DNA of 64,000 nt. It comes from Thermodesulfobacteriota bacterium. GTDB lineage: Bacteria; Desulfobacterota; QYQD01. Under the pieces are notes generated by a model. The model was not told the origin of the DNA. It saw only the letters and a list, made by a program, of their open reading frames with translations, and did not search any database. Positions 23,157 through 35,656 of this stretch are shown in pieces; position 1 is the stretch's first letter; the number at the start of each line of letters is the position of its first letter. Location: assembly GCA_040755415.1 (NCBI GenBank), contig JBFMAZ010000098.1, positions 2,160 through 66,159 of the forward strand, in the 5' to 3' direction. Position numbers and translations under genes: made by a program.

Positions 23157-23594
23157 TCAGTACCACCCTGGATGTCTGTGTCCGCTATGACAGGTGGTGC
23201 AGAGATTTTTAGGAATGGTCAAAGTCCGCTGATGTTCCTCTTTCGTTGGGGCCTTAAGATGCAAACTGGCCGGGCCATGGCAGGATTCACACTGTTTGTT
23301 TGCCATATCCGGTGTTTTTTCCACACTGCGAAAACCGCCCGGCTGTCCAAAACCTGTAGTGTGGCAGCGAAGACAATTCGGATCATGTTCCTTCTTCCTC
23401 ATCTGGATAATTCGAAAATTTTTAGAGTACTTCCACGTTAAGTATGTCTCCACTTCTTTCGGGTGGCACTCTTTACACTTCGCCATCCCCACATAGGTAG
23501 CCTTCTCCTTTGCCGCCCACGCTGTTTGTAAACCAAACAATAAATCCACACCGTAAGTAAAAAATAAGGCGATTATTACAATAAATATCTTCAT
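23157..23594 (-). CDS. Tetraheme cytochrome c554-like protein
   Basis: Signal peptide; CKECH, CLRCH, CESCH, CTTCH. Confidence 0.88.
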   Translation of the reverse strand: MKIFIVIIALFFTYGVDLLFGLQTAWAAKEKATYVGMAKCKECHPKEVETYLTWKYSKNFRIIQMRKKEHDPNCLRCHTTGFGQPGGFRSVEKTPDMANKQCESCHGPASLHLKAPTKEEHQRTLTIPKNLCTTCHSGHRHPGWY

Positions 23595-23904: not shown

Positions 23905-24954
23905 ATGGATAAGACGGGTATTAAAAATGGGCCACAGGCCTTAACAAGCCGCAGGGATTGTCTCAAGATCATAGGGATGCTCGGCCTGGGCATGGCCGTC
24001 CCAAGTGTTTGGCCGACATCATCCGAGGCCAAACTTTCTAACGGTCTTAATCAGGTCAGTAGAACCCTTCCCCTTATGGGCACTTTTGTCAATATAACTG
24101 TCCTGCATTCATCTCAGGACAGGGCCATCGAGGCCGTGGAAAAGGGCTTTTCCCGGATGGAGGAACTGGTCAAGGTGTTTGACCGCTACGCTAACAACAC
24201 CCCGGTATCCTGGTTAAACCACAAAGGCCAGCTCAAAGACGTCTGCCCTGAACTAGCACTGGTTATGAGCAAGGCTGCCTACTTTCATTTCCTGAGCCAG
24301 GGTTCTTTTGACATAACAGTCCAGCCCCTTGTTAACCTTTATAAAGAAGCATTCGCCAGGACCGGCCATGCGCCGTCACCAGAAAAAGTTAAAGAAAAAT
24401 TAGCCCTGGTTGATGCCGATAAGATACAGTTTAATAAGCAAGGCATCCGTTTCTTAAAAGAAGGCATGGGCATAACCCTGGATGGCATTGCCAAGGGCTA
24501 TATCGTTGACGAAGCCGCTAACGCCTTGAAAAAAATGGGTGTGCAGTATGCCCTGATCAATGCCGGTGGAGATATCCGGGCTATCGGCGGAAACGGCCCG
24601 GATAAGTCCTGGAAGATCGGCATTACCGACCCCCGGAAACAAAAGCCATACCTTCAGACTATAGCATTAAACAACGGCGCTGTTGCTACATCCGGTAACT
24701 ATGAGGTTTACTTTGACCGGGAAAAGCTTTACTACCATATTATTGATACGCATACTGGCCGGTCTCCCAGGGATATGGCCAGTGTAAGCATTACCGCGCC
24801 CACAGTCATGGAGGCCGATGCGCTTTCCACTACTGTCTTTGTTGAAGGTATAGAAAAAGGCATGCGACTTGTGGAAGCACTGCCGAACGTGGAGGCGCTG
24901 GTAATAACCGGCGGGAATAAGAAATTCGCTTCTAAGGGCTGGAAGACGGCCTAA
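23905..24954 (+). CDS. apbE: FAD:protein FMN transferase, Tat-exported
   Basis: SRRDCLK Tat motif, MGT, DGIAKGY, NAGGDI, ATSGNYE, HIID. Confidence 0.93.
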   Translation: MDKTGIKNGPQALTSRRDCLKIIGMLGLGMAVPSVWPTSSEAKLSNGLNQVSRTLPLMGTFVNITVLHSSQDRAIEAVEKGFSRMEELVKVFDRYANNTPVSWLNHKGQLKDVCPELALVMSKAAYFHFLSQGSFDITVQPLVNLYKEAFARTGHAPSPEKVKEKLALVDADKIQFNKQGIRFLKEGMGITLDGIAKGYIVDEAANALKKMGVQYALINAGGDIRAIGGNGPDKSWKIGITDPRKQKPYLQTIALNNGAVATSGNYEVYFDREKLYYHIIDTHTGRSPRDMASVSITAPTVMEADALSTTVFVEGIEKGMRLVEALPNVEALVITGGNKKFASKGWKTA

Positions 24955-27562: not shown

Positions 27563-27997
27563 CTAAGCCACTACCTTTGTAATTATTGGATTGTAGGACT
27601 GATCTCCGGTATATTTGATGTGGGCATAATATCTTATGCCAATGAAGGTAAGTACGACGAACAAAAGACTAAAAACAGCCCCTGAAATATCCTTGTCGCC
27701 CAAAACCCGCGAGTGATAACCTATCAGCGCCCCGGCTACCAGACCAGCCAGGGGAACAAGATATAAGATAAAGGATGCCTTTACTTCCCCCTCCACCTTG
27801 AGCGAGACACGCACCCGCTGGCCTTTGGAGGCCCCTACGGTATTTAATGCCGTAAGCACTGTCTCGCCTTCGCCAAGTAACCCGCACGTCTCGCGGGTCG
27901 AGCAACTGTCGCAGGCCGGGCTGCGCTTGATCCTGACCTTAGCCCGGTTACCTTCGACTGCGATTACCTCGCCCTCTTCTTCCCGAATCCGAACCAT
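27563..27997 (-). CDS. RseC/MucC family protein
   Basis: ACDSCSTRETC, two C-terminal TM helices, within the rnf operon. Confidence 0.85.
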   Translation of the reverse strand: MVRIREEEGEVIAVEGNRAKVRIKRSPACDSCSTRETCGLLGEGETVLTALNTVGASKGQRVRVSLKVEGEVKASFILYLVPLAGLVAGALIGYHSRVLGDKDISGAVFSLLFVVLTFIGIRYYAHIKYTGDQSYNPIITKVVA

Positions 27998-27999
27998 AA

Positions 28000-28476
28000 T
28001 TAATCCACAACCCAGACCGTACAGTTCCGTGCAAAACTTACCACCTTGTTCGAAACGCTGCCAAACATAAATTCCTTTATTCCAGAAACACCCCTTCGCC
28101 CGACAACAATGGTACTATACCTTCCTTCCTGGGCCTCAAACATGATGTCCCTGGCTATACCGACCTTCTTTATCTGGATCTTGACGCCTATCCTGTTATC
28201 CGGGATCCCTGCTTCCTCCAGAATCTTCCTGGCTGAAGCCGTAACAGATTCCATCATCTTGCGCTTCTCTTCCGTCAGCCCCTTTAACTCCAGCATCTTA
28301 CTGGCAAAGACGGGATGCAGCGAGGGTTCCTTTTCTAAGCCGGTGCCCGGAGCTTCCGGCAGCACACTGAATAGGGTTACCTCCACGGCCTTTGGGTTCA
28401 CGGTGTCAGCCACATACCGCACCGCCTTCATAGAATATTCTGACTCATCCATGGCTATCAATATCTTCTGGGCCAT
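28000..28476 (-). CDS. Universal stress protein
   Basis: KILIAMDES, VGRRG, FGSVSNKV. Confidence 0.9.
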   Translation of the reverse strand: MAQKILIAMDESEYSMKAVRYVADTVNPKAVEVTLFSVLPEAPGTGLEKEPSLHPVFASKMLELKGLTEEKRKMMESVTASARKILEEAGIPDNRIGVKIQIKKVGIARDIMFEAQEGRYSTIVVGRRGVSGIKEFMFGSVSNKVVSFARNCTVWVVD

Positions 28477-28487
28477 TCAACGCCTCC

Positions 28488-29294
28488 TCATACTACGGTG
28501 AAAACTAAGCTTTGAATAATACCGGTCGGACACTTCTCAAAACATTTTCCGCAACCCGTGCATTTCGCGGCATCCACGACCGAAAGGAATTTTACCACCT
28601 CAACCGCCTTTTCCGGACACGCCTTCTTGCACAGGCCGCAGCCCAAGCAGCCGGCCTCACAGATCTCCTTGACCAGCTTGCCAACATCGTGCGAACTACA
28701 AAGGCTCGCCACTTTCTGCGACACCGGCACTACCTTAGGGATATGCCGCGGACACACCTTGACACATGTCCCGCAGGCCGTACATTTCTCATCATCTACC
28801 CTGGGCAGGCCGTCTTCACCCATGCTGAGCGCCCCGAACGGACAATTGGCTACGCAGGTGCCCAGTCCCAGGCATCCGTAACTACAAGATTTATCACCGC
28901 CGGAGACCAGCATGGCCGCCCGGCAGTCATTAATACCCATGTATTTGAACTTTCGTTCGGCCTTGGCACTGTCGCCTTTACAGAAGATCCGGGCTACCTC
29001 GCGTTCTGCCGCCACGGCCGAGACCCCCAGTACACCGGCCACTGCCTGAGCCACCGAGGCCCCACCGGCCTTACAGGCATTGACCGGCGCCTTGCCTTCA
29101 ACGATAGCCGCCGCACAGTCACTACAGCCGGCATATCCGCAACCGCCGCAATTGGCGCCAGGCAGCACGTCGGCTACCTGCGTAATGCGGGGGTCAACAT
29201 ATACATAAAATATCTTACTGGCCACCCCGAGGATTACACTCAGTGCCAATCCTAACACCCCCATCGCCCCTATTGCTATAACTATCGGTCCCAT
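28488..29294 (-). CDS. rnfB: Rnf complex subunit B (polyferredoxin)
   Basis: LPGANCGGCGYAGC, several CxxCxxCxxxCP motifs. Confidence 0.93.
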   Translation of the reverse strand: MGPIVIAIGAMGVLGLALSVILGVASKIFYVYVDPRITQVADVLPGANCGGCGYAGCSDCAAAIVEGKAPVNACKAGGASVAQAVAGVLGVSAVAAEREVARIFCKGDSAKAERKFKYMGINDCRAAMLVSGGDKSCSYGCLGLGTCVANCPFGALSMGEDGLPRVDDEKCTACGTCVKVCPRHIPKVVPVSQKVASLCSSHDVGKLVKEICEAGCLGCGLCKKACPEKAVEVVKFLSVVDAAKCTGCGKCFEKCPTGIIQSLVFTVV

Positions 29295-29318: not shown

Positions 29319-29897
29319 TTAAGATATGCCGGCCAGGCCGTAAAAGGTAAGGCCTATCATGCCGGCCGTGATCAGCCCAAGAGGTACCCCATCCAACAGC
29401 TTGGGTATCCTGGCTATGAGCATCCTTTCCCGGATACCGGCCATAATCACCATGGCCATACTAAACCCCACCGCCGTGAAGATAGAATAAACCAAGGTAT
29501 GCATAAAATCATAATCCTCCCGGATGTTTAACACCGCCACGCCGAAGATCATGCAGTTGGTGGTTATGAGGGGCAGGTAAATACCCAAAGCCCGATAAAG
29601 CGCCGGTGATACCTTCTGGATGACCATCTCCACAAACTGAACCAGGCCGGCAATGATCAGGATAAAGGCCAGGGTCTGGAGGTATTCCAGGCCCAGGGTA
29701 TCCAGTACCGCCTTCTGAAATATCCAGCAGAGAACGCCGGAGAGGACGTTCACAAATATACAGGCGGCGGACATGCCGAGGGCGCTGTCCATGGCTGTGG
29801 TAACCCCCAGGAAAGGGCAGTTCCCCAAAAATCTGATCAGGAGAATGTTATTAACGATAATGGCCGAAAGGATAAACATGAACCAGCTTTGTTCCAT
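29319..29897 (-). CDS. rnfA: Rnf complex subunit A
   Basis: FLGNCPFLG, LPLITTNC, GIRERM. Confidence 0.95.
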   Translation of the reverse strand: MEQSWFMFILSAIIVNNILLIRFLGNCPFLGVTTAMDSALGMSAACIFVNVLSGVLCWIFQKAVLDTLGLEYLQTLAFILIIAGLVQFVEMVIQKVSPALYRALGIYLPLITTNCMIFGVAVLNIREDYDFMHTLVYSIFTAVGFSMAMVIMAGIRERMLIARIPKLLDGVPLGLITAGMIGLTFYGLAGIS

Positions 29898-29917: not shown

Positions 29918-30523
29918 TTATTTCTTGGCTTCCAGCTTTAAGGAAATAAAATTCATGATGCCGAGGAGCGAACCCAGTAAGGCAAAGGCCCCCGGCGGCT
30001 TGAGAAGGTAGGGCATGCCCGGATAGCTCTCCGGCATGACCGGTATTCCGAACCAGGAACCCTTGCCCAGTATCTCCCGTATGGTCGATACCACAACCAG
30101 TGATATGGTAAATCCTATCCCCATTCCTAATCCATCAGCCAGAGAGAGCCCGACCGGCTCCTTGCGGGCGAAGGCCTCCGCCCGTCCCAGGGGTATTCAG
30201 TTAACCACGATAAGCGGGATCCAGATACCGAGCACCAGGAAGAGTGGATAGAAATAGGCCTGCATCACCAGCTCCACTATGATGACCGCGCTGGCAATGA
30301 TGGCAATAAAGACCGCTATCCTCACCTTATCCGGGATAATCTTCCGCAGCATGGAGATAAAGACGTTACCCATGGTGGTCACAAAAATGACCCCGGCCCC
30401 CAGGCCCACTCCGTTGGCCACGTCCGTAGTCACGGCCAGGGTCGAGCACAGGCCAAGGACGAAACGGAAGGGCGGGATCTCCTTCCAGAGGCCCTTGGTA
30501 AATTCACTGACAATACGCGCCAT
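29918..30523 (-). CDS. rnfE: Rnf complex subunit E, predicted selenoprotein (Sec109)
   Basis: ORFs 30197..30523 and 29918..30124 share one frame; the single TGA (30197-30199) occupies the Cys position of PLIVVNC..GRAEAFA; readthrough gives 201 aa. Confidence 0.88.
30165..30184 (-). promoter_or_regulatory. Putative bacterial SECIS hairpin of rnfE
   Basis: CGGGCGGA-GGCC-TTCGCCCG, 8-bp stem starting at +13 after TGA, loop begins with G. Confidence 0.7.
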
Positions 30524-30540
30524 TTACAACCTCCTTAATT

Positions 30541-31128
30541 TTATACGCCCAACTGGGGTTTATATTTCCTGTAAGTCTCCACGCCGGCCTTTACTGCATT
30601 GCTTACACCGGTCGAGGATAGCGTCGCTCCACTCAGCCCCTGAACCTCGCCGCCAAGGCTGAAATTAGCCGTCAAAGGCTTGTCCTTGAACTGGGCGCAG
30701 AAGGAAGGATCATCCGCTACTCTCGTACCCACACCCGGCGTCTCGGACTGGGAGGTAATGGCTATGCCATCCAGCTTCTCGGTCTCAGGATTAACGGCCA
30801 TCATCACGCCGATCTCGCCATGAAACCCAGTACCACTGGTCTCAAAGGCCACGTCAATGACCTTACCCGCCTTCTTGGCAAAGAAGAAGGTAGTTTTAAC
30901 ATCCTTACCCTTTTTGTCCTTACCGGTTACAATTTCCTTCCGGTCGGTGACGGGGTCATTATCATAACCGGTGAGCACCTTCTTCAAGGCAGGCTCCTTG
31001 ATGAATTTTATCTGCTGATAGACAATTTGTTCCGCTGTGGCCAGTTTGACAAGCGACAGCCCGCCTCCACAGACAGCGGCCACAAGCGTCAACACCACGA
31101 TCATCTTGATAATTTCACGAACTTGCAC
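30541..31128 (-). CDS. rnfG: Rnf complex subunit G (FMN-binding)
   Basis: N-terminal anchor, ETPGVG, LSGATLSS. Confidence 0.93.
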   Translation of the reverse strand: MQVREIIKMIVVLTLVAAVCGGGLSLVKLATAEQIVYQQIKFIKEPALKKVLTGYDNDPVTDRKEIVTGKDKKGKDVKTTFFFAKKAGKVIDVAFETSGTGFHGEIGVMMAVNPETEKLDGIAITSQSETPGVGTRVADDPSFCAQFKDKPLTANFSLGGEVQGLSGATLSSTGVSNAVKAGVETYRKYKPQLGV

Positions 31129-32083
31129 TGGCTTTTACCCTCCCGTAAACCCTTGGTTTGATATAATCTAAAAGCGGGGTTAAGGTACTGGCCATAAGGA
31201 CAGCGAAATAGGTCCCATCCTCCCACTGGGACCAGGCCCTGATGACCACCGCAAGCATCCCGCCAAGCAACCCGGACAGTACCTTACCTATTGGGGTAAC
31301 CGGCGAGGTGGTGGAATCAGTAGCCAGGAAAAAGGCCGCCAAAAGGCTACCGCCGGTCAGGAGATGAAAGAGCGGGCTGGCATATTTCTCTGGATTGGCC
31401 AGCCATAGAATCCCTGAGAGGATAGCGATACCCGCCAGGAAGCCAGCCGGGATATGCCAGGAAAAATTCCGCCTTAAAAGAAGGAATAGACCGCCTATCA
31501 GTAACGCAATCTTGCACCCTTCACCTACAGTACCGGCCACCCTGCCGATGATAAGGTCTTTTAACGTAAAGTATTCCCAGATAACCCCGACCCCTTCATC
31601 CCTTAAGACCTGGAGGGGGGGCAGTTCCGTCATTATATCCCCTGCGGGCGGCGTCCAGGCAATCATGGCCTCCGGGTAGGACAGCCTTAATGCCACGTAA
31701 GCCACCAAAACCCCGTTGAACGGGTTACAGCCCAGCCCGCCATAAATCTCTTTTCCGAGAAGGATCATAATAAAGGTGGCGATCACGATCATCCACCACG
31801 GCAGGGTGGGCGGAAGAATAGCCGCAAAAACCAGACCGCTTACTACTGCCGTCAGGTCATCAATAGTAACCTTCCGTCCCATCATCTTCTGGAGGATGGC
31901 CTGCCAGGCCACGGCTGAGATCACAGAGACAGCCACGACCTTCAAGACGCCCATACCATAAAAATATAGCCCGGCGGCTAAGGCCGGAGCCAGGGCGATA
32001 ATAATATTCAGCATCATCTTCCGGACGGAATTGCCGCTATGAATATGCGGCGTAGCGGATACAACGAGTTCTGGTGCCTTCAT
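31115..32083 (-). CDS. rnfD: Rnf complex subunit D, atypical (no GAT/SAT FMN site)
   Basis: PHIH, GKEIYGGLGCNPFN, ATDSTTSP; DIMTELPPL in place of D..(S/T)xATPL. Confidence 0.88.
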   Translation of the reverse strand: MKAPELVVSATPHIHSGNSVRKMMLNIIIALAPALAAGLYFYGMGVLKVVAVSVISAVAWQAILQKMMGRKVTIDDLTAVVSGLVFAAILPPTLPWWMIVIATFIMILLGKEIYGGLGCNPFNGVLVAYVALRLSYPEAMIAWTPPAGDIMTELPPLQVLRDEGVGVIWEYFTLKDLIIGRVAGTVGEGCKIALLIGGLFLLLRRNFSWHIPAGFLAGIAILSGILWLANPEKYASPLFHLLTGGSLLAAFFLATDSTTSPVTPIGKVLSGLLGGMLAVVIRAWSQWEDGTYFAVLMASTLTPLLDYIKPRVYGRVKASASS

Positions 32084-33375
32084 TCGCTACTCCTTTGCGC
32101 CATAATTTGTGCCTTGCCGTATTTTATCCAGTGCACCATAGGTATCCTCACCGGGCATACATAGGCACAGCATCCACATTCAAAGCATGTGAATATATCG
32201 TTGGCCGCAGCTTTAGCATATACCCCCTTTTCCGAAAAGCCGGAAATAAGAAACGGCATTAGCCCTACCGGACACACCTCGACACATAACCCGCACTTGA
32301 TGCAGACCGCCGAATCATATTTGGCGACCTCTTTCTCCTGCTGCACGAAAATACCCAGCATCTCTTTGGTCACCGGCGTCTCGGTATTGCCAATGGCCGT
32401 GCCCATCATGGGGCCGCCTGCTATAACCTTGCCCATCCCTTCCACAGAAATTCCACAATGCCCTAGAACTTCCTTAACCGGCGTGCCGATCCTTACCTGG
32501 ACGTTTTTGGCACCGGTTCCATTAGTACCGGTAACCGTTATGAACCTGTCCACCACCGGCTTTTTCTCCGCCATGGCCCGGCCCACCGCCGCTACCGTCT
32601 CTACACTCAGGACCAGGGCGCCTATATCGGCCATACAATAAACCTCAGTACAGGGTACCTCCTTACCCAGTATCGACTTCACCAGCAAGAGATCCATAGC
32701 CTGGGGATACTTGGGCTTCAATCCCACTATGTTAGCCGCACCACCACAGGCCGAACTGATAGCCGATATGGCCTGTGCGGCATTTTCATCGACAGCTACA
32801 TATACAGAAGTAGCCCCGATAATACCCTTTATAGTATCTATCCCGCGCGCGACTTCCTGAACCCTTTCGGACAACAGACGCGACCGGCCCGAGAGTACCG
32901 GCTCTATGTCCATGGCATTTACAATAAGGGCATTAGCCCGGCGAGACTTTGCCTCATTAAGCTTAGCCACAAGCGGGACCGGCTTTATATCAAAATCAAC
33001 GATTCCCGCCTGTTGTATGGTGGCCAGGGGACCTGCGCTGCCCTCCAGTCCCACCCACTCATCCTTGCCGTCAGATTCTATGAGCACAGCCGGGACGAAT
33101 CCCCCTAAATAATGGGGATAGGTCTTTGTTACGTCGGCTACCTTACCGGAAACCGTGGCATGGATGTGGGCGCCTTCCGGACCGGCGCTTTCACCGATTA
33201 CCTGTCCGACCTTGACCTCATCACCCTTTTTGACCTTGGCATTACAAACTCCGCCGAGGTCTTGTTTGAGCGGGATGGCTATAACACCAGAGGGGATGAT
33301 ACGTTCGAAGGGTTTGTTTACGCTTGCTTCTGAAATAGGCAAGCAAATACCGCCAGAAAAGCTACCTGCACTCAT
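32080..33375 (-). CDS. rnfC: Rnf complex subunit C, atypical (degenerate flavin/NAD site)
   Basis: IHATVSGKV, YPQA, GGPMMG, CIKCGLCVEVCP, CFECGCCAYVCP. Confidence 0.88.
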   Translation of the reverse strand: MSAGSFSGGICLPISEASVNKPFERIIPSGVIAIPLKQDLGGVCNAKVKKGDEVKVGQVIGESAGPEGAHIHATVSGKVADVTKTYPHYLGGFVPAVLIESDGKDEWVGLEGSAGPLATIQQAGIVDFDIKPVPLVAKLNEAKSRRANALIVNAMDIEPVLSGRSRLLSERVQEVARGIDTIKGIIGATSVYVAVDENAAQAISAISSACGGAANIVGLKPKYPQAMDLLLVKSILGKEVPCTEVYCMADIGALVLSVETVAAVGRAMAEKKPVVDRFITVTGTNGTGAKNVQVRIGTPVKEVLGHCGISVEGMGKVIAGGPMMGTAIGNTETPVTKEMLGIFVQQEKEVAKYDSAVCIKCGLCVEVCPVGLMPFLISGFSEKGVYAKAAANDIFTCFECGCCAYVCPVRIPMVHWIKYGKAQIMAQRSSE

Positions 33376-33457
33376 ATTCGTTCACTCTCTCCTTCCAGCG
33401 AATTACGGGACTGGATATACCTAAACACACTCTTTGTCAAGATAAAAAAAAGGCCAC

Positions 33458-33490
33458 AAAAAAGCGGGAAGCTTATAAGCTTCCCGCTTT
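33458..33490 (-). terminator. Intrinsic terminator downstream of the cytochrome c3 gene
   Basis: AAAGCGGGAAGCTTATAAGCTTCCCGCTTTTTT on the minus strand. Confidence 0.75.
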
Positions 33491-33509
33491 AAAAATCACA
33501 TCCGCCTAC

Positions 33510-33887
33510 TTATTTTTTGTGACATTCGCCGCACATCACCGGGAGTGACTTGCCTGCTGCCGGTTTGGTCTCGCGGTGACAACCCACGCAGTTCTCGTGA
33601 AACGCCTTCATAAGCCCCATCTTCTTGCCCTCCGCCTTAAGCCCGTGGCAGGCCGCGCAATTCGTCTCCCGCGACTCATCCCACACGTTCTGTCCGTCTA
33701 CATAAAAATGATGGCACGCCGTACACTCAATGGTGGCAAAGTGTTGGGCATGCGGGAACGTCACGCCCGGCCTCTGTCGTTTTTCAAATGCCTTATGCTC
33801 CAGTTTCAGCACTTCTTCCTGGGCGTAAGCACAGGTAGCTATAAAAATAGCCAAAACTATCGTTAGCAGAATGCCATTATTTTTCAT
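33510..33887 (-). CDS. Class III tetraheme cytochrome c (c3 family)
   Basis: SD aggagg, signal peptide, FPHAQH, CTACHH, CAACH, CVGCH, CGECH. Confidence 0.92.
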   Translation of the reverse strand: MKNNGILLTIVLAIFIATCAYAQEEVLKLEHKAFEKRQRPGVTFPHAQHFATIECTACHHFYVDGQNVWDESRETNCAACHGLKAEGKKMGLMKAFHENCVGCHRETKPAAGKSLPVMCGECHKK

Positions 33888-34039
33888 CTCTATCCTCCTG
33901 ACCGGCAATAACCCACTGAATCACAGTTCAGCTTGTGTGTAACAAAATAGAGATTATATGTCAAGGAAAATGTCTATCCCCAAAACAGACGTCGCCTTAC
34001 CAACTTTTTGTCGAGCATCTTTAGTGAATTAGACCAAGC

Positions 34040-34224: not shown

Positions 34225-35469
34225 TCATAAGAATATATCGAATAACTCCACCAGATGCACAGCCTGGGCATTAAGCCCATGTCTAAACAAGCCCTCCTTC
34301 CACTGTAGCAGGCAGCCCATACAACTGGTGACTAACATGTCCGCATCCATGTCTTTTAGGGCCATAATTCGCCTGGCGAGGATTTTACACGATAAATCGT
34401 AATGGGTAAGGTTGAATAGTCCACCGTGTCCACAGCATGTGGGGCCATCCTCGAATTCACAAAAATCAACTCCGGGTAAGGACTTGATGAGCAGACGCGG
34501 CTCCTCGAGGATTTTTTCTCTAAACCGAAAATGGCAGGGGTCATGATACGTCACCTTCAGGCGCCCGGTTTTCGGCGCAAGGGCCGATAACTGTCGGGAA
34601 AAATTTCTCTTATGAGACAAAAAGACCGATATATCCATAACTTTTGCTGAAAATTCCGCTGCTTTTTCTGCAAAAACCGGGTCACCGGCAAGAAGTTTGG
34701 GATAATTGAATCTTAGATGTGAGCTGCAAGAGGCGCAGTTCGTAATGATGTAGTCGCATCGGCTGTCAATAAATGCGGATATATTGGCCCTAGCCAAGGA
34801 TTGTGCCGTCTCTTCGTCCCCCGCGGCAAAGGCCGGAAACCCGCAGCATTTCTGTTTCTTGGGTGTCCATACAGGCTCGCCAAGGAAGTCAAAAATATTC
34901 AGGACAGCCTTCCCCACGTTAGGAAAGAGATAATTTGTGATACACCCTGTAAAGTAAGCCACCTTAGCTGAGGTGTTTATTTCCTGAGGCAGGTCATTCT
35001 TCAGAAAAAAGGTCGCCGCCAATGACGGCAGCCATGACCTCCCGGCCAGCAGTGGAATCGGGAACCGGCAATGGAGGCCGCTATCTTCCGGGACTCTTTT
35101 GCAGAGGAGTCCCTGGATCAGGGAACCGCCTTTTAGTATAAAGGGCAAAAGGCGTTCAGAATCCAGAAGGTAATGAAAAAAGTATCGCTTCCCCGCGGGA
35201 AGTCCTTTTTCTTTGACCAAACTTGCCCGCGCCTCCTGTACGGAGGCATCCGCATTGACCCCGGCAGGACAGGCATTCGTGCAAGCCCCGCAAAGGAGAC
35301 AGTAAGAGAGCAATTCTTCAAAGCGGTCGGAAAACGGTAACCTGCCTTCCCGATTCGCCTCAATAAGGCTTAATTTACCCCGTGGGGAATAGGCCTCCAG
35401 CCGCGTCACCTGGTAAACTGGGCAGACACTCATACACGTCCCGCATTTATTGCATGAAGGTGTGCTAAT
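34225..35469 (-). CDS. GlcF/HdrD-like Fe-S oxidoreductase with two CCG domains
   Basis: CNKCGTCMSVCP (begins upstream of the tracked ATG), CLLCGACTNACP, CCGFP, YHDPCH, CCGHGG; ATT start is inferred. Confidence 0.85.
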   Translation of the reverse strand: MSTPSCNKCGTCMSVCPVYQVTRLEAYSPRGKLSLIEANREGRLPFSDRFEELLSYCLLCGACTNACPAGVNADASVQEARASLVKEKGLPAGKRYFFHYLLDSERLLPFILKGGSLIQGLLCKRVPEDSGLHCRFPIPLLAGRSWLPSLAATFFLKNDLPQEINTSAKVAYFTGCITNYLFPNVGKAVLNIFDFLGEPVWTPKKQKCCGFPAFAAGDEETAQSLARANISAFIDSRCDYIITNCASCSSHLRFNYPKLLAGDPVFAEKAAEFSAKVMDISVFLSHKRNFSRQLSALAPKTGRLKVTYHDPCHFRFREKILEEPRLLIKSLPGVDFCEFEDGPTCCGHGGLFNLTHYDLSCKILARRIMALKDMDADMLVTSCMGCLLQWKEGLFRHGLNAQAVHLVELFDIFL

Positions 35470-35529
35470 GATGCCTACCCCCTGATCTCATCTGCTATAA
35501 CTCGATAACCAAGAAGACATTACAGAATC

Positions 35530-35652
35530 TCAAATGACAAAATCCAAAGTTCAAATCAATGCCAAACGCCAAAGCCCAAATAAAGTCCTCCGGAGGCGGA
35601 TGATATTTGTCATTTGAACTTTATTTGAACTTTGGATTTTGAACTTTGAACT
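35530..35652. repeat. Inverted heptamer arrays (CAAA../TTTGAAC)
   Basis: caaatgacaaaatccaaagttcaaa ... tttgtcatttgaactttatttgaactttgg. Confidence 0.75.
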
Positions 35653-35656
35653 TTCT

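What the first reader, a model, noticed from the sequence alone, without database searches (positions are those of the whole stretch)
30541..33887. Rnf variant apparently lacking the NAD branch: degenerate RnfC and RnfD, intact RnfG, upstream cytochrome c3
Seen: RnfC has AGIVDFDIKPVPL and NAMDIEPVL where canonical RnfC has AGIVGxGGAxFPT and NGAECEPYL, but keeps both 4Fe-4S motifs. RnfD has DIMTELPPL instead of the (S/T)xATPL FMN-attachment motif, while RnfG keeps SGAT. A tetraheme c3 gene lies directly upstream. Established: Rnf normally couples ferredoxin to NAD+ via B-A/E-G-D-C, and sulfate-reducer rnf loci often adjoin multiheme cytochrome genes. Inference: electrons may run RnfB to the Sec-containing A/E cluster to RnfG-FMN and out to a periplasmic cytochrome or a quinone, with C and D mainly structural. 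That would be a distinct ion-translocating system. Caveat: a terminator separates c3 from rnfC.
Basis: partly seen in the sequence, partly recalled or inferred. Interest (0 to 1): 0.8.

Follow-up and report, generated by a model that had tools for sequence, protein, structure and literature searches.

The report
Sulfate-reducer Rnf pump without NAD site
This is a complete membrane Rnf ion pump from a sulfate-reducing bacterium that belongs to an old, widespread branch of the family which has lost the site that normally reduces NAD+ and often sits beside a periplasmic cytochrome gene, so its real redox partner is probably not NAD.

Summary
On the minus strand lie a tetrahaem c3 gene, a strong terminator, then rnfCDGEAB. 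RnfC lacks the NuoF-type FMN/NAD(H) motifs but keeps all eight [4Fe-4S] cysteines. RnfD has Pro where the flavinylated Thr should be. RnfG keeps SGAT.

This is not local decay. It is the hallmark of one old Rnf lineage of the window's phylum. In RnfC and RnfD trees, 39 and 38 variant sequences form one clade (support 1.0 and 0.998). Desulfovibrionaceae Rnf with an upstream decahaem gene belongs to it. An upstream multihaem gene was found at 18 of 36 evaluable variant loci and 0 of 110 canonical ones.

The RnfC cysteines are 100% conserved, the RnfD riboflavin ligands are kept, and RnfC is among the best-conserved subunits.

Most likely this is a reversible ion-translocating ferredoxin:cytochrome c3 oxidoreductase. 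Electrons would run through RnfB, the A/E [2Fe-2S] cluster (Sec ligand here) and RnfG-FMN. The role of the riboflavin and RnfC Fe-S arm is unresolved.

A ferredoxin:cyt c3 function is already in print as one alternative for Desulfovibrio. I found no paper giving the sequence-level loss of the NAD and FMN sites.

The parts
33510..33887 (-). Periplasmic tetrahaem cytochrome c3 of the TmcA / type II c3 kind, with a signal peptide ending AYA|QEE. An alternative TTG start lies at 33908.
   Evidence: PF02085, 55.8 bits. Four CxxCH motifs. The best NCBIfam model is acidic tetrahaem c3 TmcA, 107 bits against a cut-off of 114. The best full-length PDB match is 3cao. It is conserved upstream of rnfC in the window and the 6 other rnf-bearing genomes of its family, and in 2 loci of another family.
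33457..33490 (-). Intrinsic-terminator hairpin (13 bp stem, 4 nt loop, U run) between the cytochrome gene and rnfC. A TTGACA hexamer follows at 33435..33440.
   Evidence: Sequence and fold: MFE -41.5 kcal/mol for the spacer, z = -3.24, 0 of 200 shuffles as stable. It was not listed by the scan. The promoter reading is inference only.
32080..33375 (-). RnfC variant. The NuoF-like domain lacks the FMN/NAD(H) motifs. The C-terminal 2x[4Fe-4S] domain is intact.
   Evidence: It passes TIGR01945 (356 bits, cut-off 246). It fails the RsxC equivalog (308 bits, cut-off 345; a canonical control scores 517).
31115..32083 (-). RnfD variant. Pro155 replaces the flavinylated Thr. The riboflavin ligands N123 and D256 are kept.
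30541..31128 (-). RnfG with an intact flavinylation motif, S166-G-A-T169.
   Evidence: The best NCBIfam model is RnfG_DVU2794 (201.4 bits, cut-off 205).
29918..30523 (-). RnfE with an in-frame TGA (30197..30199) at the second [2Fe-2S] cysteine position. A hairpin lies 15 nt downstream, at about 30165..30184.
   Evidence: Including the window, 5 of 7 family genomes have TGA plus the hairpin. The other 2 have TGC or TGT with the hairpin weakened. SelA is present in the genome.
29319..29897 (-). RnfA, with both cluster cysteines and the Thr-Thr-Asn-Cys stretch.
28488..29294 (-). RnfB, a membrane-anchored polyferredoxin that forms the ferredoxin port.
27563..28476 (-). Universal stress protein gene and RseC-family gene directly downstream of rnfB.
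23905..24954 (+). ApbE flavin transferase, the only one found in the genome. It would be needed to flavinylate RnfG.

Best explanation
The locus encodes a functional six-subunit Rnf complex. It belongs to a distinct, ancient lineage found in the window's phylum of sulfate reducers.

In this lineage RnfC has lost the NuoF-type FMN/NAD(H) site. RnfD has lost the covalent FMN. The ferredoxin port (RnfB), the ion-coupling RnfA/E [2Fe-2S] centre (here with one Sec ligand) and the periplasmic flavoprotein RnfG are intact.

The most likely function is a reversible, ion-translocating ferredoxin:periplasmic cytochrome c3 oxidoreductase. Electrons would pass from ferredoxin to the RnfB Fe-S chain, then to the A/E [2Fe-2S] cluster, then to RnfG-FMN, then to the adjacent TmcA-like tetrahaem c3 and on to the c3 pool. 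In reverse, c3 reduced by hydrogenase or formate dehydrogenase plus the ion gradient would yield reduced ferredoxin.

Shown: the gene content, the motif losses and retentions, the clade structure and the synteny. Inferred: that RnfG donates to the cytochrome, and that ion translocation persists. The second point rests on the published A. woodii mechanism, in which pumping is tied to reduction and re-oxidation of the A/E cluster by RnfG-FMN and RnfD only carries electrons. The role of the conserved riboflavin site and the RnfC Fe-S clusters is unresolved.
For: Loss of the NAD branch:
- Searches show the two motifs replaced.
- One search shows that in 39 variant RnfC nearly all residues invariant in 118 canonical RnfC across the FMN/NAD domain are changed (G127, G129, G130, A131, F133, E156, C157, D164, E196, N198, K199, G226, E228, N257).
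- One search shows RnfD D149, A154 and T155 lost.

A lineage, not decay:
- The RnfC tree has 160 tips. The 39 variant tips that cluster with the window form one clade, support 1.0, with 2 state changes in all.
- The RnfD tree was built with the motif masked. Its 38 variant tips form an exclusive clade, support 0.998.
- Five sampled genomes carry both a canonical and a variant Rnf. This argues for different functions.

Cytochrome link:
- An upstream multihaem gene occurs at 18 of 36 evaluable variant loci and 0 of 110 evaluable canonical loci.
- All 5 further divergent loci examined also have one, with 6 to 10 CxxCH motifs.
- The window's cytochrome is TmcA-like, a kind known as a subunit of a membrane redox complex (the role of TmcA is recalled, not from a call).

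Intact pumping module:
- RnfG Thr is present in 38 of 38 aligned variant loci.
- RnfE E116 and R68, and RnfA T112 and T113, are kept.
- The mechanism is taken from PMC11889175 (passages).

Context:
- dsrA, NiFe(Se) hydrogenases and ApbE are present. There is only this one Rnf and no Nqr in a 98.8% complete genome.
- Ferredoxin:NAD+-coupled gradient assays with D. alaskensis vesicles were 'unsuccessful' (PMC4841214, passage).
Against: - A strong terminator separates the cytochrome gene from rnfC.
- Half of the evaluable variant loci (18 of 36) have no multihaem gene upstream.
- In D. alaskensis, dhcA mutants showed no fitness defect where rnf mutants did (PMC4215793, passage).
- The 100% conservation of the RnfC cysteines and of the RnfD riboflavin ligands suggests electrons still reach RnfC. 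The simple path through RnfG does not explain this.
- M. acetivorans Rnf works with a cytochrome yet keeps all cofactor sites (bioRxiv 10.1101/2022.07.20.500911, passage; locus L011). Loss of the sites is therefore not required for cytochrome coupling.
- No biochemical data exist for this organism.
Confidence: 0.5

Rival explanations
1. The U-shaped path survives without the RnfD FMN. RnfG-FMN would reach the RnfD riboflavin directly, for example by dipping into the vacated pocket. Electrons would then run through the two RnfC [4Fe-4S] clusters to an unknown cytoplasmic acceptor that is not NAD, such as a protein partner. The cytochrome would be a side port at RnfG. The complex would be a three-port hub.
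For: - All eight RnfC cysteines are kept in 39 of 39 variant sequences.
- The riboflavin ligands are kept: N in 36 of 38, D or E in 38 of 38.
- RnfC is 84-88% identical within the family, against 69% for RnfD and RnfA at the same depth.
- For two-subunit Nqr/Rnf-like complexes that lack the RnfD Thr, it has been proposed in print that the RnfG-type flavin samples the non-covalent site (PMC11334425, passage).
Against: - No candidate acceptor gene is conserved at these loci.
- The former FMN pocket is not conserved between subclades (VDFD, LVRA and deleted forms). No common new ligand site is therefore evident.
- Conserved off-pathway clusters are known elsewhere (recalled: N7 of complex I).
Confidence: 0.25
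2. It is still a ferredoxin:NAD+ oxidoreductase. NAD(H) would be handled by a remodelled RnfC site or by another flavin.
For: - This is the usual annotation and physiological model for sulfate-reducer Rnf (PMC4215793 and PMC10553843, passages).
- RnfC still passes Pfam PF01512 (78 bits) and TIGR01945.
- The fold is RnfC-like, TM 0.75-0.77.
Against: - The glycine loop and the ECEP motif are replaced, and about 14 further canonical-invariant residues of the domain are changed.
- The loop is deleted outright in 120 of 120 Desulfovibrionaceae-type clusters.
- There is no covalent FMN site in RnfD.
- A canonical Rnf coexists with a variant Rnf in five sampled genomes.
Confidence: 0.1
3. It is an NQR-like quinone reductase. 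Electrons would leave from the RnfD riboflavin to menaquinone, and RnfC would act like the cofactor-less NqrA.
For: NqrA is a precedent for an RnfC homologue without an FMN/NAD site (PMC12174285, passage). The riboflavin ligands are kept.
Against: - NqrB keeps the flavinylated Thr, and the review says it has two extra N-terminal helices that form the quinone site (PMC12174285, passage). The window RnfD is only 322 aa and aligns from residue 5 of RnfD.
- NqrA lost its cysteines, whereas here all eight are kept.
- The NCBIfam Nqr models score far below their cut-offs.
Confidence: 0.05
4. It is a decaying, non-functional operon.
For: It lacks two textbook motifs and has an in-frame stop in rnfE.
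Against: - All six genes are otherwise intact.
- The variant state is shared by a deep clade with strong purifying selection.
- The TGA alternates with Cys codons and carries a hairpin.
- Rnf of the same lineage is required for growth of D. alaskensis on several substrates (PMC4215793, passage).
Confidence: 0.02

Closest known systems
Desulfovibrio-type Rnf with an upstream decahaem cytochrome (dhcA-rnfCDGEABF; Dde_0580-0587, DVU2791-2798)
   Same: - It falls in the same lineage. Loci with a 10-haem gene upstream have RnfC without the glycine loop and RnfD without the Thr motif.
- 0 of 120 related clusters, several named Desulfovibrio or Bilophila by their sources, carry the loop. 114 of 120 keep 8 Cys.
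- The window's RnfG scores best on the NCBIfam model RnfG_DVU2794.
   Different: - The cytochrome is a tetrahaem TmcA-like c3, not a decahaem, and is separated from rnfC by a terminator.
- apbE is nearby on the other strand, not the last gene of the operon.
- RnfC is only about 25-29% identical to that type.
- RnfE carries Sec.
- I did not see the D. alaskensis or D. vulgaris sequences themselves.
Methanosarcina acetivorans Rnf with MmcA (ferredoxin:methanophenazine, Na+-translocating)
   Same: A multihaem cytochrome gene lies directly upstream of rnfCDGEAB. There is no NAD(P) involvement. RnfG was proposed as the donor to the cytochrome (PMC4023990, passages).
   Different: - All cofactor sites are conserved there (bioRxiv 10.1101/2022.07.20.500911, passage).
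- A Methanosarcinales locus (L011) has canonical RnfC and RnfD motifs.
- The window proteins score far below the rnf*_Methano equivalogs.
Canonical Rnf (A. woodii 9eri, C. tetanomorphum 7zc6, A. vinelandii 8ahx)
   Same: The six subunits and the gene order rnfCDGEAB match. The fold of RnfC matches (TM 0.75-0.77). RnfA/E, RnfG and RnfB cofactor sites are shared.
   Different: No FMN/NAD(H) motifs in RnfC, no flavinylated Thr in RnfD, and a cytochrome neighbour.
Na+-NQR
   Same: It offers a precedent for an RnfC homologue (NqrA) without the NAD/FMN site.
   Different: There is no NqrF. The RnfC Fe-S clusters are kept. The NqrB-type Thr and quinone helices are absent.
Two-subunit Nqr/Rnf-like complexes (Meheust and Light laboratories)
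   Same: The RnfD-like subunit lacks the flavinylation Thr. Electron export to extracytosolic acceptors is proposed (PMC11334425, passages).
   Different: Those have only two subunits, with a fused NAD-binding domain. Here all six Rnf subunits are present.

Membership tests
Rnf complex (RnfABCDGE type) | Six subunits C, D, G, E, A, B encoded together | tested here: met
   TIGR01945, TIGR01946 and TIGR01943 pass their cut-offs. The RsxE subfamily model NF009070 passes (235.9 bits, cut-off 184). rnfG (97.9 vs 102) and rnfE (209.4 vs 213.4) fall just under the TIGR cut-offs.
Rnf complex (RnfABCDGE type) | RnfC with two [4Fe-4S] clusters | tested here: met
   All eight Cys are present.
Rnf complex as ferredoxin:NAD+ oxidoreductase | NuoF-type FMN/NAD(H) site in RnfC (GxGGxxFP loop, NGxECEP) | tested here: not met
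   The RsxC equivalog scores 308 bits against a cut-off of 345.
Rnf complex as ferredoxin:NAD+ oxidoreductase | Covalent FMN on the RnfD Thr (A. woodii Thr156) | tested here: not met
   Pro155 aligns with Thr156. There is no alternative motif.
Rnf complex (RnfABCDGE type) | Covalent FMN site on RnfG | tested here: met
   SGAT at 166-169. ApbE is in the window.
Rnf complex (RnfABCDGE type) | Four Cys from RnfA/RnfE for the membrane [2Fe-2S] cluster | tested here: inconclusive
   Three Cys plus an in-frame TGA at the fourth position, read as Sec. Insertion of Sec is not shown.
Rnf complex as ferredoxin:NAD+ oxidoreductase | Ferredoxin-dependent NAD+ reduction coupled to ion transport | not testable with these tools
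   Needs biochemistry.
Methanosarcina-type cytochrome-linked Rnf | Multihaem cytochrome co-transcribed upstream, with all Rnf cofactor sites retained | tested here: not met
   The cytochrome is adjacent, but a terminator intervenes and the RnfC and RnfD sites are lost. The rnfC_Methano model scores 204 bits against a cut-off of 650.
Desulfovibrio-type DhcA-Rnf lineage | Same clade in the RnfC and RnfD trees; RnfC without the FMN loop; multihaem c3-family gene upstream | tested here: met
   RnfG_DVU2794 scores 201.4 bits against a cut-off of 205, just under. The Desulfovibrionaceae-type loci were added by alignment and not placed in the trees.
Na+-NQR | NqrF present, cofactor-less NqrA, flavinylated NqrB | tested here: not met
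   Nqr models score far below their cut-offs. No second RnfD/NqrB homologue is in the genome.
TmcA / type II cytochrome c3 | Passes the NCBIfam TmcA equivalog; encoded with tmcBCD | tested here: not met
   107 bits against a cut-off of 114. Its neighbours are rnf and a GlcF-like gene, not tmcBCD. A genome-wide search for tmcBCD was not run.

The most novel reading that the evidence does not exclude
The whole sulfate-reducer Rnf lineage, model Desulfovibrio species included, may not be an NAD+-linked enzyme at all. It may be a three-port, ion-coupled redox hub joining cytoplasmic ferredoxin (RnfB), the periplasmic cytochrome c3 pool (RnfG-FMN) and a still unknown cytoplasmic acceptor served by the riboflavin and RnfC Fe-S arm. 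It would work without the covalent FMN of RnfD, which reviews describe as strictly conserved. In this genus it would also carry a selenocysteine ligand on the ion-coupling [2Fe-2S] cluster.
Probability: 0.25. Interest if true: 0.85.

Novelty: new variant of a known kind. Interest (0 to 1): 0.6.

Why it matters
Rnf is treated as a ferredoxin:NAD+ pump in energy budgets of sulfate reducers and of syntrophic partners of methane oxidisers. Examples are PMC4215793 and PMC10553843 (passages seen). A 2025 review calls the cofactors of the membrane core strictly conserved (PMC12174285, passage).

If this lineage has no NAD site and no RnfD FMN, those models need another partner. Rnf would then link cytoplasmic ferredoxin directly to periplasmic hydrogen, formate and cytochrome cycling.

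It would also be a natural experiment on which parts of the Rnf/Nqr electron path are needed for ion pumping. The question is directly testable in genetically tractable Desulfovibrio.

Tried and rejected
- Docking of the RnfG soluble domain with the mature cytochrome and four haems (complex prediction) gave no answer, score 0.00. This counts neither for nor against binding.
- Sequencing runs: no RNA holder was listed.
- The promoter/terminator scanner missed the terminator, which reading and folding then showed.
- Pereira et al. 2011 (PMC3119410) is not held. It may already discuss the cytochrome link, which I recall only through citing papers.
- My first regular expression for the RnfD Thr motif was too strict and was replaced.
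- The first translation upstream of the GlcF-like ORF was out of frame and was repeated.
- The AlphaFold model of RnfC confirms the fold but gives no view of the pocket. Whether the former FMN pocket is filled or open was therefore not tested.
- Decay or pseudogene was rejected; see the rival explanations.


Full report
**What is there**

The minus strand of the window carries, in order:
- a c3-family tetrahaem cytochrome gene (33510..33887; an alternative TTG start lies at 33908)
- rnfC (32080..33375)
- rnfD (31115..32083)
- rnfG (30541..31128)
- rnfE (29918..30523, with one in-frame TGA)
- rnfA (29319..29897)
- rnfB (28488..29294)
- a universal stress protein gene
- an RseC-family gene

An ApbE flavin transferase gene lies 2.6 kb beyond the RseC gene on the other strand (23905..24954).

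The genome holding the window is 2.7 Mb and 98.8% complete. It has this one Rnf only and no second RnfD/NqrB homologue. It has dsrA above the curated cut-off, several NiFe(Se) hydrogenase genes, SelA, and one other NuoF-type gene. It is therefore a dissimilatory sulfur-compound reducer that uses selenocysteine.

**Check of the observation**

The window proteins were aligned to the three solved Rnf complexes, 7zc6, 9eri and 8ahx.
- RnfC reads AGIVDFDIKPVPL where the solved chains read AGIVG(M/L)GGA(T/I)FP(T/A).
- RnfC reads NAMDIEPVL where they read N(A/G)(A/S)ECEPYL.
- Both Fe-S motifs of RnfC are present.
- RnfD reads DIMTELPPL against D(T/G)VTTATPL.
- Window Pro155 aligns with A. woodii Thr156. 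The A. woodii structure paper names that residue as the covalent FMN site (PMC11889175, passages).
- RnfG keeps SGAT (166-169).
- RnfD has no other [ST]G[AS][TS] motif.

The terminator between the cytochrome gene and rnfC is also real. It is a 13-bp hairpin with a U run at about 33490..33457. The simple scanner did not list it.

**It is a lineage, not decay**

Among the 120 best of 2987 RnfC relatives, the first 66 carry variant motifs in place of the canonical ones. Their identity to the window ranges from 100% down to 42%. Nearly all read xGxVD[FY][DG]...PL and N[AG]xDxEP. The remaining 54 are canonical.

I then sampled 401 genomes of the window's phylum. Of these, 158 have an RnfC match. 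I used the 30 loci returned. I also fetched 60 further places, chosen to cover families before I knew their motifs. To these I added the 80 loci of a scan over all prokaryote species.

After dropping 9 duplicate loci and 2 partial loci, 159 loci other than the window remained.

| RnfC type | Loci | RnfD with Thr motif | RnfD without Thr motif | RnfD not on the locus | Upstream multihaem gene (evaluable loci) |
|---|---|---|---|---|---|
| Canonical | 118 | 102 | 2 (TPL kept in an unusual context) | 14 | 0 of 110 |
| Variant | 41 | 4 | 36 | 1 | 18 of 36 |

An upstream multihaem gene was scored when an ORF with at least two CxxCH lay on the same strand within 2.5 kb. Related genomes are not independent, so these counts overstate the statistical weight.

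In a FastTree of 160 RnfC sequences, the window and 38 variant sequences form one clade (support 1.0). Only two state changes are needed on the whole tree. The second change is a small separate group (L155, L159, L163). That group lost the glycine loop on its own but keeps the RnfD Thr.

An RnfD tree was built with the flavinylation stretch masked. It gives the same result: 38 variant tips form an exclusive clade with support 0.998.

Five sampled genomes carry both a canonical and a variant Rnf.

**Desulfovibrionaceae belong to this lineage**

Loci of a further family, and of two others, have 10-, 8- or 6-haem genes directly upstream of rnfC. Their RnfC lacks the whole glycine-loop segment, and their RnfD lacks the Thr motif.

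I searched with one of these RnfC and examined the 120 best related clusters. Their sources name several of them Desulfovibrio, Bilophila or Desulfovibrionaceae. None of the 120 contains GxGGxx[FY]P, and 114 of the 120 keep all eight cysteines.

The window's RnfG scores best on NCBI's special model RnfG_DVU2794, at 201.4 bits against a cut-off of 205. The window is therefore a member of the known dhcA-rnf type of sulfate reducers, with a tetrahaem instead of a decahaem neighbour.

**What is lost and what is kept**

Within the 39 variant RnfC, nearly every residue that is invariant in the 118 canonical RnfC across the NuoF-like domain is changed. These are G127, G129, G130, A131, F133, E156, C157, D164, E196, N198, K199, G226, E228 and N257 in window numbering. 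All eight Fe-S cysteines are 100% conserved.

In RnfD, D149, A154 and T155 of the flavinylation motif are lost. The two residues that coordinate riboflavin in A. woodii, N123 and D249, map to window N123 and D256 (PMC11889175, passage). They are kept in the clade: N in 36 of 38, and D in 20 plus E in 18 of 38.

Within the window's family, RnfC (84-88% identity) and RnfB (86-96%) are the most conserved subunits. RnfD and RnfA fall to 69% at the same depth.

The AlphaFold model of RnfC is confident over the former FMN domain (mean pLDDT 77.5; 10-residue block means from residue 21 to 350 mostly above 85). It is nearest to the solved RnfC chains (TM 0.75-0.77), then to NqrA (0.51-0.62).

These data support loss of the NAD(H)/FMN function.

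**The pumping module**

The following are present:
- RnfB
- both cluster cysteines of RnfA
- RnfE Cys26 and the TGA at position 109
- RnfE E116 and R68
- RnfA T112 and T113
- the RnfG Thr

In the A. woodii mechanism, Na+ uptake follows reduction of the A/E [2Fe-2S] cluster. Na+ release follows electron transfer from that cluster to RnfG-FMN. RnfD only carries electrons. RnfB and RnfC clusters are more than 30 A apart (PMC11889175, passages).

A path that leaves the complex at RnfG could therefore keep ion coupling. This is inference.

**The cytochrome**

The cytochrome is closest to the acidic type II c3 of D. africanus (3cao, full length, E = 3e-18). It is also closest to NCBI's TmcA model, at 107 bits against a cut-off of 114.

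It is the best TmcA-like gene in the genome. A second one lies alone between mltG-like and glcD-like genes.

Its position upstream of rnfC is conserved in the window and in the 6 other genomes of its family that carry rnf (7 of 7). Two loci of another family have a 38-40% identical orthologue upstream; their RnfC are 45-47% identical to the window's.

The terminator and a TTGACA hexamer after it suggest separate transcription. I read this as a different expression level rather than unrelated function, but it weakens the link.

**Selenocysteine in RnfE**

The TGA sits exactly at the second cluster cysteine (VVN*IPLGR). Four other genomes of the genus have TGA there, with a stable hairpin starting 15 nt downstream. 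Two family members have TGC or TGT with the hairpin weakened.

Among the other variant loci, 35 have Cys at this position and one did not align there. Sec therefore does not track the loss of the C and D motifs.

A search for papers holding at least three of selenocysteine, selenoprotein, Rnf and RnfE found 113. None of the 15 listed holds the word RnfE. The ranking puts papers with more of the terms first, so no paper holds all four. A survey lists RnfC, not RnfE, as a selenoprotein family (PMC5029168, table passage).

**Literature**

- M. acetivorans Rnf uses a cytochrome and no NAD(P). RnfG was proposed as the donor to the cytochrome (PMC4023990, passages). Its cofactor sites are all conserved (bioRxiv 10.1101/2022.07.20.500911, passage). 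This fits the canonical motifs of locus L011.
- For Desulfovibrio, the cytochrome next to rnf has been hypothesised to link the periplasmic cytochrome pool with NAD(P)H or ferredoxin (PMC4287179, passage).
- Rnf is described as most likely a ferredoxin:cyt c3 or a ferredoxin:NAD+ oxidoreductase (PMC10920352, passage).
- Vesicle experiments on ferredoxin:NAD+-coupled gradients were unsuccessful (PMC4841214, passage).
- dhcA mutants had little phenotype (PMC4215793, passage).
- Recent comparative work still models Rnf of these bacteria as an NADH/ferredoxin exchanger (PMC10553843, passage).
- A 2025 review does not mention Desulfovibrio or sulfate (0 occurrences of either word).

In ten successful searches and the passages read, I found no statement that RnfC of sulfate reducers lacks the FMN/NAD site or that RnfD lacks the flavinylated Thr. 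Pereira et al. 2011 and subscription reviews could not be read, so the point may be in print.

**Verdict**

The locus is a new, Sec-bearing, tetrahaem-linked member of the known sulfate-reducer Rnf type. The wider result is that this whole lineage lacks the NAD branch sites yet keeps the riboflavin and RnfC Fe-S arm.

The best explanation is a reversible ion-translocating ferredoxin:cytochrome c3 oxidoreductase (confidence 0.5). The main rival is a hub with an unknown cytoplasmic acceptor at RnfC (0.25).

Noticed in passing
window 30197..30199 (TGA) and about 30165..30184 (hairpin), minus strand: RnfE has an in-frame TGA at the second [2Fe-2S] cysteine, with a downstream hairpin. Including the window, 5 of 7 family genomes have TGA. 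The other 2 have a Cys codon and a weakened hairpin. A Sec ligand on this cluster was not found in the papers searched.
   Followed up: partly
L155, L159, L163 (rnfC and rnfD): A separate small clade in the same phylum has RnfC with the glycine loop deleted (AGI..PL, NATEFEP). Its RnfD keeps the Thr motif, and no multihaem gene lies upstream. This is an independent loss of the RnfC site.
   Followed up: partly
L127/L128, L147/L148, L135/L136, L170/L171, L172/L173: Five sampled genomes carry both a canonical Rnf and a variant Rnf. Four of the five variant copies have a 4- or 5-haem gene 15-74 bp upstream.
   Followed up: partly
window 23157..23594, minus strand: A second small multihaem cytochrome (Pfam c554 / c7 / c3_2) lies next to apbE and upstream of a histidine kinase gene. 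It resembles the C-terminal part of NCBIfam's 'UshA-like (seleno)protein' model.
   Followed up: no
window 34225..35655, minus strand: The GlcF/LdhH-like CCG-domain Fe-S ORF upstream of the cytochrome has its first CxxCxxCxxxCP motif before the first ATG/GTG/TTG start, just after an in-frame TGA. The true start is unclear. A D. gigas paper also notes lactate dehydrogenase genes beside rnf.
   Followed up: partly
L139, L140, L150, L167, L168 (rnfD): In one variant subclade the aligned position still holds Thr followed by Pro-Leu or Phe-Leu (QTPL, ETFL, LTPL, TTPL, ETPL), but without the preceding Ala and Asp. Whether ApbE can still use it is open.
   Followed up: no
G000 contig C94:9713-10009: A NiFeSe-type hydrogenase large-subunit C-terminus has one in-frame TGA. 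This fits the use of selenocysteine in this genome.
   Followed up: no
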